Below, one piece after another: positions 18,417 through 20,983 of a stretch of 64,000 nucleotides of DNA. How positions within the stretch are numbered: position 1 is the stretch's first letter; every line of letters begins with the position of its first letter. The position numbers and the translations under genes are program-made. The stretch covers positions 1,856,001-1,920,000 of the forward strand of contig CBDEUK010000002.1 in assembly GCA_965243205.1 (NCBI GenBank), in the 5' to 3' direction. This stretch comes from Gammaproteobacteria bacterium. Its GTDB lineage: Bacteria > Pseudomonadota > Gammaproteobacteria > Eutrophobiales > Eutrophobiaceae. Under the pieces are notes generated by a model. It had not been told where the DNA came from and did no database searches. It saw nothing but the letters and a program-made list of their open reading frames with translations.

Positions 18417-19013
18417 TTGATAAAAAATAAATTTAGGGCAAGCCGATACATCAAGAATGCGGAATTATGTGAGCAATTACCAACTGATACTGGTATCGAA
18501 GTTGCGTTTGCAGGGCGTTCAAACGCCGGTAAATCCAGCTTGATTAATGTACTTACAGATCAAAAATCATTAGCTAGAACCAGTAAATTACCAGGTCGTA
18601 CCCGTCATTTAGTATGTTTTGAGGTCGAACCAGAGCGACGATTGATTGATTTGCCAGGCTATGGCTATGCAAGCGTGAGTCTTCAAATGAAAGATAAATG
18701 GGGTAAGACATTAGATAAATACTTTCAAACTCGTCAGTCATTAGCAGGCCTCATTCTAATCATGGACATACGACATCCGCTAAAACCAGATGATTATCAG
18801 ATGATTCAGTGGTGTGACGCTAGTTCTTTGCCATTACATATCGTGTTGAATAAATCAGATAAGTTATCTCGTGGAGCTGCTAGCCAACAGTTGTCGTCTG
18901 TAAAAAAGCAATTATCAGATGATGCTTCAATACAGTTATTTTCAGCCTTAAAAAAGCAAGGTTTAGATCAATTATTGGAAAAATTGAATATTTGGTTTGG
19001 ATTCGACAAATGA
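18417..19013 (+). CDS. engB: Ribosome biogenesis GTPase EngB/YihA
   Basis: GRSNAGKSS, DLPGYGYA, DIRHPL, NKSDKL. Confidence 0.96.
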   Translation: MIKNKFRASRYIKNAELCEQLPTDTGIEVAFAGRSNAGKSSLINVLTDQKSLARTSKLPGRTRHLVCFEVEPERRLIDLPGYGYASVSLQMKDKWGKTLDKYFQTRQSLAGLILIMDIRHPLKPDDYQMIQWCDASSLPLHIVLNKSDKLSRGAASQQLSSVKKQLSDDASIQLFSALKKQGLDQLLEKLNIWFGFDK

Positions 19014-19135
19014 AAAAAGTGGCCTCAGGAACATGAGAGGGGGGAGGATCCTGAGGCCATTTATAGTATTCCCGGCTATTGGGTAACCGGTAGAAAAAGT
19101 ATCACCCAGGGAGTAAGGGTGATTATTTTTTTCTT
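19013..19135 (-). ncRNA. Candidate three-hairpin sRNA at the Spot42/ErsA position, convergent with engB
   Basis: Three hairpins with C-rich loops, the last followed by CUUUUUU; sigmaE-like promoter upstream; ends approximate. Confidence 0.6.
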
Positions 19136-19140
19136 GTTAG

Positions 19141-19168
19141 TTAGTATTTTTTACTTGCAAAAAGTTCC
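19141..19168 (-). promoter_or_regulatory. RpoE/AlgU-type promoter
   Basis: GGAACTT-N16-ACTAA on the minus strand. Confidence 0.6.
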
Positions 19169-19282
19169 AGCTTCAGGATCAAAATTATTTGATCCGCGTT
19201 TTTTATACACAATTTTATTCATTGTTGCCTAGATCACAGATTATTGTTTAATCACTCCTTCTAAAAGCCGCGTATTATGGTG

Positions 19283-19497
19283 TAAGTTATTGATATTTAT
19301 AGATAAGCACAACGTTGGTTAAATTTTAACAAATTTGTCATATAAGCCTTAAAAAAAGGCTTTTTTATCGTTTGTACGCTATTTATCCCCAAAGTTATCC
19401 ACTGAAAATGTGGATAAAAATCGAAAGGTTTATTGTGCAATATCTTAGATAAAGTTCATCGAATAAAGAATTAAAAGCTTACGCTAAGTGTTTGATT
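19283..19497. promoter_or_regulatory. DnaA-box trio flanked by two IHF consensus sites (DARS-like)
   Basis: TTATCCCCA-3nt-TTATCCACT-5nt-TGTGGATAA (19383-19417); WATCAANNNNTTR matches on the minus strand at 19283-19295 and 19485-19497. Confidence 0.65.
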
Positions 19498-19519
19498 GTC
19501 GCGTTGCAATATATAGATT

Positions 19520-20983
19520 TTATTGAATCACTTTTAATAGTTGTCCTGAGTTTGGACGACCATCTGGATAGTGATCATTTAAGAGGCGTAGCGTTTCTTC
19601 CGACATTTGTAATAAAGGTGAGCTTTTCGCGAGTTTCTCATAATCCGTTGTGGTATCGGCTTGAATAATTTTCAATGCTAATGGTGCTGATAAGATCTTT
19701 TCATTAGGAGTCAGAGAATGAAAGCTTTGCATGGTATCCATGAAATCTGGGTCGAATCGTGAAATGGTAGCGGATTCTTTGGTTGTTCCTGCAAGGATAT
19801 AGGCCATCTGGTTTTGATAAATGACAGTAAATCGAGTTTCTCTACGACCAAATTCCGTACGGATTTTTGTTGTTGCAGTATGGGCTTCGAACCCATGAAT
19901 ATTTAAAGATTGCTCATTAGCTAACTCATTTAACCCTAGGCGCTCTACCATAAATTGACGCGGTGAGATGCGCTTATTGATGTCTTCAGCGGTTAATTGA
20001 ATAACCGCTTCACCTTTTGGGGCTGAAAATAAAAGTCGATCGGGTTGGTTTGTCACTTGCCAGCCTTTAGGGAAACGTAAGGCAAAGTCCAAATCTTGAT
20101 GATAAAAATGATTACCGCGAGTAATTCCCTCCTTGGGGCTATCACCAAATACCATACCATCAATATTAGAAAAATAGTCTTCTTGGGCGATTTTAGGGGA
20201 GCTTGAGCGTTGTAGTTCGGTGGCAAGTCCAACTACTTCTTGCAAGCGTTTATCATTGCTTGGATGTGTTGAAAATAAACCATGATACGTATTGGGTTCT
20301 CTGCCTTCTTGTTTAGCACGCTGGGTTTCAAACGCTTCTTGATTTTTCAGTACGGAGATAACATCAATCATGGCAGTAGGTTTATATCCAGTGATAGCCA
20401 AATATTCTGCGCCTAACCGATCCGCTTCGAGTTCATGATCTCGTCCGTATCCGCGTAATAATGCGGTACCAAAAATATTCGTAAGCTGACTACCCGCATA
20501 AGTATTCATTCCAGGAATAAAAATAGAGCCGATAAGAGCGCCAATGTTCGCAATCGATGCAGCACTGTGTTGTCGAACACTGTGACGGGCAGTGACATGG
20601 CCGATTTCATGTCCTAATACGGCTGCTAACTCTGCTTCACTATTCAAATATGCCATAAGCCCGCGGGTGATATAGATATAGCCACCCGGTAAAGCAAAGG
20701 CATTAACTTGATTGCTATCAAGCACTGTAAATCTGAATAATAAGTCTTTACGATGGCTATTACGGGCTAGTTTATCCCCGATCTGTTGAACATACTGTTG
20801 TAGCTTTTGATCATCATAAATACCGTATTGTTTGAGTACTTGTTGGTGGGCTTTGCGACCAAGTTCGATTTCTTCTTGTTCTGACATTAGAACCAGGTCT
20901 TGTCCTCCGGTTGCAGGATTACTTGAACAAGCGCTAAGAAATAGTAAAAAGCTAGTTATAAATAGGGTCTTTTGAATTTTCAT
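19520..20983 (-). CDS. M48 family zinc metalloprotease lipoprotein with C-terminal extension ending in a LysM-like motif
   Basis: Lipobox LSAC, NAFALPGG, HEIGH, ELEAD, STHP; C-terminus LRLLN...GQLLKV. Confidence 0.9.
   Translation of the reverse strand: MKIQKTLFITSFLLFLSACSSNPATGGQDLVLMSEQEEIELGRKAHQQVLKQYGIYDDQKLQQYVQQIGDKLARNSHRKDLLFRFTVLDSNQVNAFALPGGYIYITRGLMAYLNSEAELAAVLGHEIGHVTARHSVRQHSAASIANIGALIGSIFIPGMNTYAGSQLTNIFGTALLRGYGRDHELEADRLGAEYLAITGYKPTAMIDVISVLKNQEAFETQRAKQEGREPNTYHGLFSTHPSNDKRLQEVVGLATELQRSSSPKIAQEDYFSNIDGMVFGDSPKEGITRGNHFYHQDLDFALRFPKGWQVTNQPDRLLFSAPKGEAVIQLTAEDINKRISPRQFMVERLGLNELANEQSLNIHGFEAHTATTKIRTEFGRRETRFTVIYQNQMAYILAGTTKESATISRFDPDFMDTMQSFHSLTPNEKILSAPLALKIIQADTTTDYEKLAKSSPLLQMSEETLRLLNDHYPDGRPNSGQLLKVIQ

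What the first reader, a model, noticed from the sequence alone, without database searches (positions are those of the whole stretch)
19013..19168. Candidate sigmaE-driven sRNA with three C-rich (anti-SD-like) hairpin loops at the Spot42/ErsA locus
Seen in sequence: on the minus strand, GGAACTT-N16-ACTAA is followed by three stem-loops. They are AUCACCC[UUACUCCCU]GGGUGAU, CCGGUUA[CCCAA]UAGCCGG and UGGCCUCAGGA[UCCUCCCCCCUCUCAUGU]UCCUGAGGCCA-CUUUUUU, giving a ~120-nt unit convergent with the engB stop. Established: E. coli Spot42 and the AlgU-dependent Pseudomonas ErsA both lie next to the engB 3' end, and the GGDEF-dsbA-cyt c4-engB synteny here matches Pseudomonas. Inference: this is a lineage-specific envelope-stress sRNA whose exposed CCUCCC loops pair with Shine-Dalgarno sequences. 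I do not recognise the sequence as Spot42, so it may be a new family. Alternative: the plus strand shows G-rich/GGA loops and could be a CsrA/RsmA sponge in the engB 3' region.
Basis: partly seen in the sequence, partly recalled or inferred. Interest (0 to 1): 0.8.

Follow-up and report, generated by a model that had tools for sequence, protein, structure and literature searches.

The report
Envelope-stress small RNA beside engB
This is very probably a real small regulatory RNA gene, a diverged copy of a widespread but barely studied bacterial family that sits next to the engB gene, seems to be switched on by envelope stress and probably silences messages by pairing with their ribosome-binding sites.

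Summary
On the minus strand, GGAACTT-N16-ACTAA (19168-19141) precedes a ~123-nt unit (19135-19013) with three hairpins and a U-tract that abuts the engB stop.

It is not lineage-specific. A covariance model built without the window finds it at 19011-19138(-), 34.6 bits, E=6e-8. The family model matches 108 of 121 genomes of the window's family and 70 of 151 sampled families of the class, two unpublished. Matches usually lie convergent with engB and often downstream of polA.

One match passes Rfam's anti-hemB cut-off (Burkholderia ncS04). sX13, ErsA and, weakly, Spot 42 give collinear sub-threshold cross-matches at the same locus. The window itself passes no Rfam cut-off.

The sigmaE-type promoter is conserved. 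In this genome the same motif precedes rpoH and degP/Q, and rpoE-rseA is present. SL2 and SL3 covary and SL1 keeps its fold with changing sequence.

Best reading: a sigmaE-driven trans-acting sRNA whose C-rich loops pair with G-rich ribosome-binding sites, as shown experimentally for sX13. No expression data exist. It is a new member of a known kind.

The parts
19162..19168 (-). -35 box GGAACTT of an ECF sigmaE/AlgU-type promoter
   Evidence: Read. GAAC is kept in 46-48 of 48 non-redundant family promoters (the selection regex required GAA, so this is partly circular). The strict motif lies upstream of 16 of 27 class-level matches against 2 of 932 background windows.
19141..19145 (-). -10 box ACTAA, 16 nt after the -35 box (family consensus TCnnA)
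   Evidence: The family has T 43/48, C 42/48 and A 48/48 at the key positions. The window and its congener have A instead of the first T.
19013..19135 (-). Predicted sRNA transcript, about 123 nt. The start is inferred 6-7 nt after the -10 box and the end at the U-tract.
   Evidence: Fold z = -6.98. CM R2, built without this sequence, matches 19011-19138(-) at 34.6 bits, E = 6.4e-8, and the next best hit in the window scores 8.2 bits. No transcript data exist.
19101..19123 (-). SL1: 7-bp stem AUCACCC/GGGUGAU with loop UUACUCCCU. An outer A/U helix (19134-19128 with 19098-19092) is predicted in this sequence only.
   Evidence: A hairpin is predicted at this place in 48 of 48 family sequences, with 41 distinct 5' arms. 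36 of 48 have at least 6 contiguous bp against 662 of 4800 shuffles; median z = -3.0. The loop holds CCC in 27 of 48.
19072..19090 (-). SL2: CCGGUUA[CCCAA]UAGCCGG, a degenerate form of the family's near-invariant CCCGG-UCUCCCCA-GCCGGG
   Evidence: The helix covaries at class level: 5 of 6 pairs show changes on both sides.
19013..19059 (-). SL3, the intrinsic terminator: 11-bp stem (19059-19049 with 19030-19020), 18-nt C-rich loop AUCCUCCCCCCUCUCAUG (19048-19031) and U-tract 19018-19013
   Evidence: Family SL3 is GGCCCCGG-[C-rich loop]-CCGGGGCC-U run. 5 of 8 pairs show changes on both sides. The window's stem differs from the consensus by compensatory changes.
18417..19013 (+). engB (YihA/YsxC GTPase), the convergent neighbour. 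Its stop codon overlaps the sRNA U-tract, so SL3 is the first structure after engB and a likely shared bidirectional terminator.
   Evidence: In 20 family loci where the terminator regex hit (10 of 30 missed), the median gap between the sRNA end and the engB stop was 21.5 nt, and 14 of 20 gaps were 30 nt or less.

Best explanation
Window 19135-19013(-) is a bona fide trans-acting small RNA gene of about 123 nt. It is this AT-rich lineage's diverged ortholog of an old sRNA that lies convergent with the 3' end of engB in a large part of the Gammaproteobacteria (GTDB sense, including Burkholderiales). In many lineages that sRNA sits between polA and engB.

Inferred steps:
1. It is transcribed by the envelope-stress ECF sigma factor RpoE (sigmaE/AlgU type) from GGAACTT-N16-ACTAA.
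2. It terminates at SL3, which probably also terminates engB.
3. The C-rich apical loops of SL1 (ACUCCCU) and SL3 (CCUCCCCCCUCUC, which contains the anti-Shine-Dalgarno core CCUCC) pair with G-rich Shine-Dalgarno or translation-initiation regions of a set of mRNAs. This blocks ribosome binding, as shown experimentally for the related sX13.
4. The expected biological result is lower synthesis of selected, probably largely envelope-associated, proteins under envelope stress.

Shown here: the anatomy, conservation, covariation, family membership and promoter-motif context. Inferred: transcription, sigmaE dependence, the pairing mechanism and the targets.
For: Structure and chance: three hairpins plus a U-tract, z = -6.98.

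Family membership, tested without circularity: model R2, built from 47 relatives without the window or its congener, hits 19011-19138(-) at 34.6 bits, E = 6.4e-8. The next window hit scores 8.2 bits.

Conservation:
- R1 matches 108 of 121 genomes of the window's family (76 of 81 high-quality; 33 of 34 genera).
- R1 matches 70 of 151 genomes that each stand for a different family of the class. That is 68 of 149 without the unpublished G159 and G261.

Locus: engB lies within 1.5 kb of 22 of 29 best class matches and polA of 15 of 29. Without the two unpublished genomes the counts are 21 of 27 and 15 of 27.

Structure across relatives:
- On a model-fitted alignment of 51 sequences, 97.5% of cells pair, 10 of 14 pairs change on both sides, 0 of 500 shuffles reach any measure, and sliding the partner drops pairing to 20-68%.
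- SL1 folds in 48 of 48 with 41 different arms.

Strand: U-G or G-U pairs occur in 16 and 9 sequences at two positions, and the U-tract and promoter are on the minus strand only.

Promoter:
- Conserved GAAC-N16-TCnnA.
- 16 of 27 class loci carry the strict motif against 2 of 932 background windows.
- ErsA loci carry GAACTT-N16-TCAGA, and ErsA is reported to be sigma22-dependent (PMC8575079, passages).
- This genome encodes rpoE-rseA-rseB.
- It has the same motif 30 nt and 41 nt upstream of rpoH (TIGR02392, 416 bits) and of a Do-family DegP/DegQ protease (TIGR02037, 515 bits).

Mechanism by analogy: sX13 has three C-rich loops that repress mRNAs with G-rich motifs at the RBS, shown by loop and target mutations (PMC3771888, passages). 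The sX13 model cross-hits 6 family places, and R1 hits the true sX13 locus at 15.2 bits, E = 0.018.

A crude scan finds G-rich SD sites complementary to loop 3, for example an 11-12-bp match over the SD of an ammonium-transporter gene.
Against: - There is no transcript evidence. No RNA run holds the stretch, so the start, end and strand are predictions.
- The window's -10 box (ACTAA) lacks the family's first T.
- I found no clear copy of the motif in front of rpoE itself.
- The window's SL2 loop has lost the family's UCUCCCCA run (CCCAA). SL1 and SL2 each hold only three consecutive C, against 4C in sX13.
- In one well-sampled genus of the family the SL1 loop is not C-rich.
- The links to sX13, ErsA and Spot 42 are weak (14-23 bits) and owe much to the GC-rich terminator.
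- The promoter matrix came from sequences picked with a regex that already required GAA and a -10-like motif.
- The target list comes from crude ORF calls and RNAduplex, with no control for how common G-rich SDs are.
[quoted passage not shown] Envelope stress proper was not among them.
Confidence: 0.7

Rival explanations
1. It is a real sRNA of this family, but it does not work by anti-SD pairing. The conserved stems and C-rich loops would instead bind and titrate a protein or the ribosome, or the sRNA would act mainly in cis on engB. If the engB mRNA ends at or beyond SL3 it carries the exact complement of the sRNA's 3' part. A duplex with the sRNA could then alter engB mRNA stability and couple envelope stress to 50S biogenesis.
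For: - SL2 and SL3 stems are almost invariant in sequence across genomes of very different GC content. That is more than pairing alone demands.
- Linkage to engB outlasts linkage to polA: 0 of 30 family loci have polA, while engB is the neighbour.
- The sRNA end lies a median 21.5 nt from the engB stop and overlaps or abuts it in 4 of 20 loci, as in the window.
- ncS04 is reported to bind Hfq (PMC5688073), whereas sX13 is Hfq-independent. This genome has hfq.
Against: - sX13's effect was mapped to loop C-motifs and target G-motifs.
- ErsA acts in trans on algC, oprD, amrZ and anr.
- Some genomes carry extra copies away from engB, which fits trans action.
- Nothing here shows where engB transcripts end.
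Confidence: 0.15
2. It is a real sRNA of this family, but in this organism it is not under sigmaE control. The GGAACTT-N16-ACTAA match would be a relic or be used by another ECF sigma, and expression would be constitutive or answer another signal.
For: - The -10 box deviates at its first position.
- There is no clear motif in front of rpoE.
- ncS04 showed no significant change in the conditions tested.
- sX13 responds to salt, 37 C and minimal medium, which is not specifically envelope stress.
Against: - The same motif with the same spacing is kept in the congener and across the family and class.
- It precedes rpoH and degP/Q in this genome.
- ErsA, with the same promoter type, is sigma22-dependent.
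Confidence: 0.2
3. There is no independent RNA gene. The hairpins would be only the engB 3' UTR and terminator, or a plus-strand G-rich CsrA/RsmA sponge.
For: - The plus strand also folds well, z = -3.35.
- SL3 directly follows the engB stop.
- Plus-strand terminator-like hairpins lie further on, at 19176-19195 and 19344-19362.
Against: - A conserved promoter motif at a fixed distance on the minus strand.
- A U-tract after SL3 on the minus strand in all 49 aligned sequences.
- G-U pairs that would be A-C on the plus strand.
- Family members are validated independent transcripts in the sX13/ncS04/ErsA orientation: ncS04 and sX13 by Northern blot, and ErsA as studied in the paper read.
- Some copies are not next to engB at all.
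Confidence: 0.04

Closest known systems
Rfam RF02837 anti-hemB ('Burkholderia RNA 7') = ncS04 of Burkholderia cenocepacia J2315
   Same: - Same architecture: SL1 with a CCUCCCUG-type loop, a second hairpin, and a GC-rich terminator with a U run (alignments).
- One class-level match of my model (L117) passes this family's gathering score at the same place, 52.8 against 49.5 bits, and lies polA -> sRNA <- engB.
- By my hand comparison of the two tables, 54 of 84 R1 places coincide with RF02837 places at E <= 0.01.
- 6 of the 8 genomes over its cut-off are hit by R1 at the same place.
- ncS04 is a Northern-validated 105-nt RNA reported to bind Hfq (PMC5688073, passages).
   Different: - The window gets no RF02837 match at all: none at E <= 10 in 18900-19560 and none at E <= 0.01 in the whole genome.
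- Typical relatives score 28-29 bits.
- The Rfam model has an unremarkable U-rich second loop, where this family has UCUCCCCA.
- No function is known for ncS04. In the passages I read, its promoter type and engB linkage are not discussed.
sX13 of Xanthomonadaceae (Rfam RF02232)
   Same: [quoted passage not shown]
- Lies at the polA locus.
- Represses mRNAs through G-rich motifs at the RBS (PMC3771888, passages).
- Its model aligns full-length to a family member at 26.1 bits and cross-hits 6 places also found by R1 at E 1e-5 to 8e-3.
- R1 finds the genuine sX13 locus at 15.2 bits, E = 0.018.
   Different: - There is no significant match to the window.
- sX13 is described as exclusive to Xanthomonadaceae and always downstream of polA. 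The window's upstream gene is an M48 peptidase, and 0 of 30 family loci have polA nearby.
- sX13 loops carry 4C/4C/5C. The window carries 3C/3C/6C.
- The one sX13 locus I saw has GAACCA, but no clear TCnnA -10 box.
- Hfq dependence is unknown here.
ErsA of Pseudomonas (Rfam RF01719 Pseudomon-1/ErsA)
   Same: - Lies at the engB 3' end, convergent.
- Same promoter type, GAACTT-N16-TCAGA.
- Reported to be sigma22/envelope-stress-dependent and to repress, among others, the porin OprD (PMC8575079, passages).
- Has three stem-loops, and its terminator loop is C-rich (CCCUCCCC).
- R1 with filters off hits the ErsA gene in 3 of 4 PrrF-positive genomes at 22.8, 16.9 and 14.4 bits, E = 1e-5 to 5e-3.
   Different: - There is no RF01719 match in the window or in 6 typical relatives.
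- ErsA has a 34-nt U-rich unstructured domain II between SL1 and SL2, which is its main pairing region. The window has about 10 nt there.
- ErsA lies between polA and engB.
Spot 42 (spf, Rfam RF00021) of Enterobacterales and Vibrionales
   Same: - Same chromosomal position: polA -> spf <- yihA(engB) in E. coli K-12.
- Similar size, and the terminator faces engB.
- R1's best hit in that 6.5-kb locus is spf, at 15.6 bits, E = 0.001.
   Different: - Only the terminator aligns.
- There is no RF00021 match in the window or in the genome at E <= 1.
- From recall, not tested here: Spot 42 uses U-rich single-stranded regions, is CRP-repressed and acts in carbon metabolism.
- Spot 42 has no sigmaE-type promoter or C-rich loops.
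SigmaE-dependent sRNAs of enterobacteria and vibrios (MicA, RybB, MicL, VrrA)
   Same: Working logic only, from recall: an sRNA arm of the envelope-stress regulon that lowers synthesis of envelope proteins. The promoter type is the same.
   Different: There is no sequence, structure or locus relationship, and none was found by Rfam. Those sRNAs use 5' single-stranded seeds and Hfq, not C-rich hairpin loops.

Membership tests
engB-adjacent C-rich-loop sRNA family as defined here by models R1 and R2 (it includes sequences that pass Rfam RF02837) | Significant match to a covariance model built without the candidate | tested here: met
   R2 (47 relatives) hits window 19011-19138(-) at 34.6 bits, E = 6.4e-8. 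The next best hit scores 8.2 bits.
engB-adjacent C-rich-loop sRNA family (R1/R2) | Gene convergent with, and within tens of nt of, the engB stop | tested here: met
   The window U-tract overlaps the engB stop. The family median gap is 21.5 nt in 20 of 30 loci measured. engB lies beside 22 of 29 class matches.
engB-adjacent C-rich-loop sRNA family (R1/R2) | (G/T)GAACTT-N16-TCnnA promoter about 35 nt upstream of SL1 | tested here: met
   The window has GGAACTT-N16-ACTAA: 7 of 7 at -35, spacer 16, and C and A kept at -10 with the first T changed to A.
engB-adjacent C-rich-loop sRNA family (R1/R2) | SL1 (variable stem), SL2, then SL3 as terminator with a U run | tested here: met
   for the window; for the family.
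engB-adjacent C-rich-loop sRNA family (R1/R2) | SL2 loop UCUCCCCA on a CCCGG/CCGGG stem | tested here: not met
   The window has CCGGUUA[CCCAA]UAGCCGG. The congener has CCGGCC[UCAC]GGCCGG. This genus has lost the motif.
Rfam RF02837 anti-hemB | Score at or above the gathering threshold of 49.5 bits | tested here: not met
   No match in the window at gathering, at E <= 10 in 18900-19560, or in G000 at E <= 0.01.
Rfam RF02837 anti-hemB | SL1 loop of the type UCuCCUCCCUG | tested here: inconclusive
   The window loop UUACUCCCUGG shares CUCCCUG (against the consensus shown).
Rfam RF02232 sX13 | Score at or above the gathering threshold of 50 bits | tested here: not met
   (G000 has no match).
Rfam RF02232 sX13 | Three stem-loops with apical 4C/4C/5C motifs | tested here: inconclusive
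   There are three stem-loops, with C runs of 3, 3 and 6. The definition comes from PMC3771888.
Rfam RF02232 sX13 | Located directly downstream of polA | tested here: not met
   The upstream gene is an M48 peptidase. polA is not within 1.5 kb in 0 of 30 family loci.
Rfam RF02232 sX13 | Hfq-independent repression through G-rich RBS motifs | not testable with these tools
   This needs genetics. hfq is present in the genome.
Rfam RF01719 Pseudomon-1/ErsA | Score at or above the gathering threshold of 50 bits | tested here: not met
   True ErsA genes score 127-134 bits.
Rfam RF01719 Pseudomon-1/ErsA | Sigma22/AlgU-type promoter | tested here: met
   Met by sequence only.
Rfam RF01719 Pseudomon-1/ErsA | [quoted passage not shown] | tested here: not met
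   The window spacer is about 10 nt. The definition comes from PMC8575079.
Rfam RF00021 Spot 42 | Score at or above the gathering threshold of 80 bits | tested here: not met
SigmaE (RpoE) regulon | Transcription dependent on RpoE | not testable with these tools
   There is only motif evidence and the presence of rpoE-rseA-rseB.

The most novel reading that the evidence does not exclude
One ancient sigmaE-controlled sRNA gene with C-rich loops may have sat at the 3' end of engB since before the Burkholderiales split from the other Gammaproteobacteria. Spot 42, ErsA, sX13, ncS04/anti-hemB and the window's RNA would all be its descendants.

Its stubborn linkage to engB, which outlasts the linkage to polA, would then be functional. 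The two convergent transcripts share SL3, so the sRNA would also act in cis on the engB mRNA 3' end. That would tie envelope stress to 50S ribosome-assembly capacity, on top of its trans anti-SD activity.
Probability: 0.15. Interest if true: 0.7.

Novelty: new member of a known kind. Interest (0 to 1): 0.5.

Why it matters
For this genome it adds a well-supported regulatory RNA gene, and probably a post-transcriptional arm of the envelope-stress response, in a lineage with no sRNA annotation.

More broadly, four sRNAs studied separately (Spot 42, ErsA, sX13, ncS04/anti-hemB) may be linked. They appear connected by a large, mostly unannotated set of intermediate sequences that share a locus, a sigmaE-type promoter and C-rich loops.

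- My model finds this set in 70 of 151 sampled gammaproteobacterial families (two of these genomes are unpublished).
- Rfam's anti-hemB cut-off captures 8 of those 151.
- No paper in the searched library holds two or more of the terms ncS04, sX13, ErsA and 'C-rich loops' except the sX13 paper itself.

If the link holds, sX13's mechanism and ErsA's regulation become working hypotheses for many environmental and pathogenic bacteria. The family would also be a good case for studying how an sRNA changes its seed while keeping its address.

Tried and rejected
- Expression data: the look-up of sequencing runs listed no RNA holder for 18800-19500. Four holders from one study were of unrecorded type, and three possible RNA runs held next to none of the words.
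A parallel call failed on a missing field.
- Rfam at gathering gave 0 hits in the window and 0 in 14 relatives' loci.
- Low-score window hits were judged chance or terminator-only: FtrA 21.4 bits, LhrC, AaHKsRNA82, speF, and STnc220 at 33.7 against 60 bits on the plus strand at 19299-19371.
- BLASTN of the element against 61 relatives found only the congener, so I moved to synteny and covariance models.
- RNAalifold on the two-sequence MAFFT alignment gave a wrong long-range structure and I ignored it. RNAalifold did not recover SL1 from MAFFT alignments. R2's automatic SL2 is mis-specified with 3 pairs, so R2 is largely a sequence model.
- A first attempt to extract SL1 hairpins with a loosened regex failed. 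I dropped a formal pair count on pre-selected hairpins as circular and used shuffles instead.
- rpoE autoregulation: no convincing GAAC-N16-TCnnA motif upstream of rpoE.
- PrrF as a marker found no Pseudomonas in the class sample. It did in the phylum sample's family f156.
- Outside the class, R1 gave only 24-30-bit matches to other C-rich-loop RNAs. In the 7 loci fetched, the 6 from outside the class were not at engB; the seventh, of the same class, was. I did not count these as members.
- oriC reading of the DnaA boxes upstream: dnaA and the cumulative GC-skew minimum lie about 110 kb away. This is left unresolved.
- Target prediction by RNAduplex on crude ORF calls is kept only as a lead.
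- Supplementary files of the sX13 and Burkholderia papers were not seen. Their target tables and sRNA coordinates could bear on motif and locus comparisons.
Full report
**1. The observation**

On the minus strand the window reads GGAACTT (19168-19162), 16 nt, ACTAA (19145-19141), followed by three hairpins and CUUUUUU ending at 19013.
- SL1, 19123-19101, loop UUACUCCCU.
- SL2, 19090-19072, loop CCCAA.
- SL3, 19059-19020, an 18-nt loop rich in C.

The fold has an MFE of -44.2 kcal/mol, z = -6.98, and 0 of 200 shuffles do as well. The plus strand is less exceptional, z = -3.35.

Pfam confirms the neighbourhood:
- GGDEF protein, DsbA and a di-haem cytochrome c on the minus strand.
- engB at 18417-19013 on the plus strand, with its stop codon under the U-tract.
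- An M48 peptidase at 19520-20983(-) upstream of the element. Its best NCBIfam match is BepA, but far below cut-off (132 against 570 bits).

**2. Known families**

Rfam 15 gives no match in the window at gathering thresholds. In 18900-19560 at E <= 10 it gives only low chance-level or terminator-only hits, with none to Spot 42, ErsA, sX13 or anti-hemB. The Spot 42 model finds nothing in the whole genome at E <= 1.

**3. Relatives**

BLASTN found only the same-genus genome G001. There the promoter (GGAACTTTTTGCAA...TACTAAC) and all three hairpins are kept. The stems of SL2 and SL3 differ by compensatory changes, and the loops keep ACUCCCUGG and a C-run.

I then fetched engB loci from 30 genomes of the window's family and read the DNA downstream of engB. 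Nearly all show the same build:
- (G/T)GAACTT-N16-TCnnA.
- A variable hairpin, often with a CCUCCC loop.
- An almost invariant CCCGG-UCUCCCCA-GCCGGG.
- GGCCCCGG-[C-rich loop]-CCGGGGCC-U run.

A pattern taken from SL2-SL3 found 64 places in the species-representative genome collection.
- By my reading, about 60 have the family build. They are Gammaproteobacteria MAGs, Methylohalomonas lacus, a 'Thiotrichaceae' MAG and 'Ectothiorhodospiraceae' MAGs.
- Four are chance hits in high-GC coding DNA.
- engB is present in 48 of the 64 loci.

**4. Covariance models**

R1 was built from 49 sequences including the window.
- It matches 108 of 121 genomes of the window's family at E <= 0.001 (76 of 81 high-quality genomes; 33 of 34 genera).
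- It matches 70 of 151 genomes at E <= 0.01 in a sample with one genome per family of the class (56 of 123 high-quality).
- Two of the 70, G159 and G261, are unpublished. Without them the count is 68 of 149.
- Several genomes carry two to four copies, some in tandem.
- Outside the class only 24-30-bit matches to other C-rich-loop RNAs appeared. In the 7 loci fetched, the 6 from outside the class were not at engB, while the seventh, of the same class, was.

To avoid circularity I built R2 from 47 relatives, without the window and without G001.
- It hits the window at 19011-19138(-) with 34.6 bits, E = 6.4e-8. The next best window hit scores 8.2 bits.
- It hits G001 at 42.9 bits.

The window's RNA is therefore a member of this family, though a diverged one. 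Its R1 score of 56 bits is among the lowest in its own family.

**5. Structure and strand**

I counted pairs on a model-fitted alignment of 51 sequences from the family and the class, leaving out the unpublished genomes.
- 97.5% of cells form standard pairs.
- 10 of 14 pairs of SL2 and SL3 show changes on both sides (35 cells).
- 0 of 500 column shuffles reach any of the five measures.
- Sliding the 3' partner by one to three columns drops pairing to 20-68%.
- The alignment is fitted to the structure, which favours it.

SL1 is too variable for MAFFT, so I folded each sequence on its own.
- 48 of 48 give a hairpin before SL2, with 41 distinct 5' arms.
- 36 of 48 have at least 6 contiguous pairs, against 662 of 4800 shuffles.
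- The median z is -3.0, and 35 of 48 are below -2.
- The SL1 loop holds CCC in 27 of 48 and CUCC or CCUC in 28 of 48. One well-sampled genus lacks a C-rich SL1 loop.

The strand is settled by three things:
- The promoter on the minus strand.
- The U run after SL3 in all 49 aligned sequences.
- U-G or G-U pairs at two positions, in 16 and 9 sequences (29 of 49 sequences). These would be mismatches on the engB-sense strand.

This rejects the plus-strand CsrA-sponge alternative.

**6. Promoter**

In 48 non-redundant sequences the matrix shows the following:
- G, A, A in 48 of 48 and C in 46 of 48.
- T-rich positions 6-9.
- A 16-nt spacer.
- T in 43 of 48, C in 42 of 48, and A four positions on from the T in 48 of 48.

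The sequences were chosen with a regex that already asked for GAA and a -10-like motif, so the invariance is partly built in.

A less biased test used the 27 published class-level loci. The strict motif GAAC[CTA]N-N15-17-TCnnA lies within 75 nt upstream of the model match in 16 of 27, against 2 of 932 background windows from the same loci. By eye, five more carry GAAC...N16...TCTAT.

This matches the sigmaE/AlgU consensus as I recall it (GGAACTT-N16-TCnAA).

In the window's own genome:
- rpoE, rseA and rseB are present.
- The same motif lies 30 nt upstream of rpoH (GGAACTT-N16-TCTTA; TIGR02392, 416 bits against a cut-off of 323).
- It also lies 41 nt upstream of a Do-family DegP/DegQ protease (TGAACTT-N15-TCCTA; TIGR02037, 515 bits against 416).
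- In E. coli both genes are classical sigmaE promoters (recalled).
- I found no clear copy before rpoE itself.

The window's -10 box (ACTAA) keeps the C and the A but not the first T.

**7. Relation to named sRNAs**

(a) anti-hemB/ncS04.
- Typical relatives give full-length sub-threshold hits to RF02837 at 28-29 bits, E = 0.004-0.006.
- One class-level R1 match (L117) passes its gathering score, 52.8 against 49.5 bits, at the same coordinates. It lies polA -> sRNA <- engB.
- Over the class sample RF02837 exceeds its cut-off in 8 of 151 genomes but gives E <= 0.01 in 90 of 151.
- By hand comparison, 54 of the 84 R1 places coincide with an RF02837 place. 6 of the 8 over-cut-off genomes are hit by R1 at the same place.
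- ncS04 is a 105-nt RNA validated by Northern blot and dRNA-seq. It is reported to bind Hfq and has no known function (PMC5688073, passages).

(b) sX13.
- RF02232 is over cut-off in 1 of 151 genomes, but cross-hits 6 places also found by R1 at E = 1e-5 to 8e-3.
- R1 with filters off finds the genuine sX13 gene at 15.2 bits, E = 0.018.

(c) ErsA.
- In a PrrF-positive family (4 of 4 genomes) I fetched four engB loci.
- Rfam's Pseudomon-1/ErsA scores 127-134 bits next to engB in three of them.
- R1 with filters off hits exactly those genes at 22.8, 16.9 and 14.4 bits, E = 1.3e-5 to 5e-3.
- They carry GAACTT-N16-TCAGA and a C-rich terminator loop.
- ErsA is sigma22-dependent, envelope-stress-inducible and Hfq-dependent, and it represses oprD and algC (PMC8575079, passages).

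(d) Spot 42.
- In the E. coli polA-spf-yihA locus R1's best hit is spf, at 15.6 bits, E = 0.001. Only the terminator aligns.

Among the 29 best class matches, engB lies within 1.5 kb in 22 and polA in 15. Without the unpublished pair the counts are 21 of 27 and 15 of 27. In the window's family polA is nearby in 0 of 30 loci.

My reading has two levels of confidence.
- Well supported: the window's RNA belongs to the same family as anti-hemB/ncS04.
- Inference from weak but collinear cross-matches at an orthologous locus: the family is related to sX13 and ErsA, and perhaps to Spot 42.

The sX13 paper already noted that Spot 42 and the alpha-r7 RNAs share the polA locus. I found no paper in the library that holds two or more of ncS04, sX13, ErsA and 'C-rich loops' other than that paper. 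Only Burkholderia survey papers mention ncS04 or anti-hemB.

**8. How it probably works**

Loop 3 contains CCUCC, the anti-Shine-Dalgarno core, inside CCUCCCCCCUCUC. Loop 1 reads ACUCCCU. For sX13, loop C-motifs and target G-motifs near the start codon were both shown to be needed for repression, independently of Hfq.

By analogy I propose that the window's RNA, made when sigmaE is active, pairs through loops 1 and 3 with G-rich ribosome-binding sites and blocks initiation.

A crude genome-wide scan used 2547 home-made ORF calls and RNAduplex of the three loops against -35..+15. The best clean matches over Shine-Dalgarno sites, annotated by Pfam, were:
- An ammonium transporter, with an 11-12-bp match to loop 3.
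- nrdA.
- An NnrU membrane protein.
- A ferredoxin.
- pntA.
- A small OMP beta-barrel protein.
- A DUF4870 membrane protein.
- An autotransporter beta-domain protein.
- A PQQ dehydrogenase.

Many are envelope proteins, which fits a sigmaE sRNA. There is no control, so I give this little weight. hfq is present in the genome. Whether the RNA needs it is open, since ncS04 binds Hfq and sX13 does not need it.

**9. What remains unshown**

There are no expression data. SigmaE dependence, the transcript ends, the pairing mechanism and the targets are all inferred.

This genus has lost the family's SL2 loop motif and changed the SL3 stem. The RNA may therefore work with fewer seeds than its relatives.

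The tight and lasting linkage to engB, with a shared terminator hairpin, leaves room for an added cis-antisense role on engB.

**10. Verdict**

This is a real feature, correctly seen, and largely correctly interpreted as a sigmaE-type sRNA with C-rich loops at the Spot 42/ErsA address. It is not lineage-specific or a new family.

It is a new, diverged member of a known kind. The wider result is that this kind is far more widespread and more uniform in promoter, locus and loops than the separate Rfam families suggest, and that gives it moderate general interest.

Noticed in passing
window 19383-19417 (three DnaA boxes at 19383-19391, 19395-19403 and 19409-19417), within the 19169-19519 spacer: There is a tight triple of DnaA-box-like 9-mers, one perfect and two with one mismatch. 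The first faces the other two. With the fourth box at window 19203 it is the densest cluster on contig C2, and it is one of only two such tight triples there. The arrangement TTATCCACA-N6-TGTGGATAA-N4-TGTGGA is kept in 22 of 30 family loci about 400-480 nt from the engB stop. dnaA and the cumulative GC-skew minimum lie about 110 kb away. It may therefore be a DnaA-binding regulatory or DARS/datA-like site rather than oriC, but this is unresolved.
   Followed up: partly
window 19201-19330, minus strand: Further noncoding blocks are conserved across the family upstream of the sRNA promoter. They include TTGTG(C/T)ATAAA (window 19212-19201, about 35-45 nt before the -35 box), ACAAAnCTGTTAAAATTTAACC, and an AT-rich TATATTTCAATAAGTTA that resembles an IHF site (recalled consensus). 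Their function is unknown.
   Followed up: partly
window 19176-19195 and 19344-19362, plus strand: Two plus-strand terminator-like hairpins with T runs lie here. The second underlies a sub-threshold Rfam hit to STnc220, 33.7 against 60 bits. No plus-strand gene ends there other than engB, further upstream. The second may serve as a bidirectional terminator for the M48 peptidase gene.
   Followed up: no
class-level loci such as L097, L098, L099, L112 and L121; also L041, L055, L073 and L087: Many family members outside the window's family carry an extra 5' hairpin of the type ACGUUC-NNNNN-GAACGU before SL1. 13 of 48 sequences had two or more 5' hairpins.
   Followed up: no
G171:C1:1014047-1014456, G216:C1:41939-43695, G088:C30:1392-1630, G267:C1:904217-904516; G241 and G151 with 3-4 copies: Some genomes hold tandem or dispersed extra copies of the sRNA (sibling sRNAs), not all of them next to engB.
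   Followed up: no
window 19520-20983 (-): The gene upstream of the sRNA, on the same strand, is a 487-aa M48 metallopeptidase. Its best NCBIfam match is the beta-barrel assembly-enhancing protease BepA, but far below cut-off at 132 against 570 bits. That is an envelope-quality-control theme next to a putative envelope-stress sRNA.
   Followed up: partly
G000 C2:1797753 (-) and C2:1251144 (-), outside the window: SigmaE-type motifs lie directly upstream of rpoH and of a DegP/DegQ protease. Further intergenic matches lie before an ABC ATPase, a small secreted protein and an M16-like peptidase. This is a starting list for the sigmaE regulon of this organism.
   Followed up: partly
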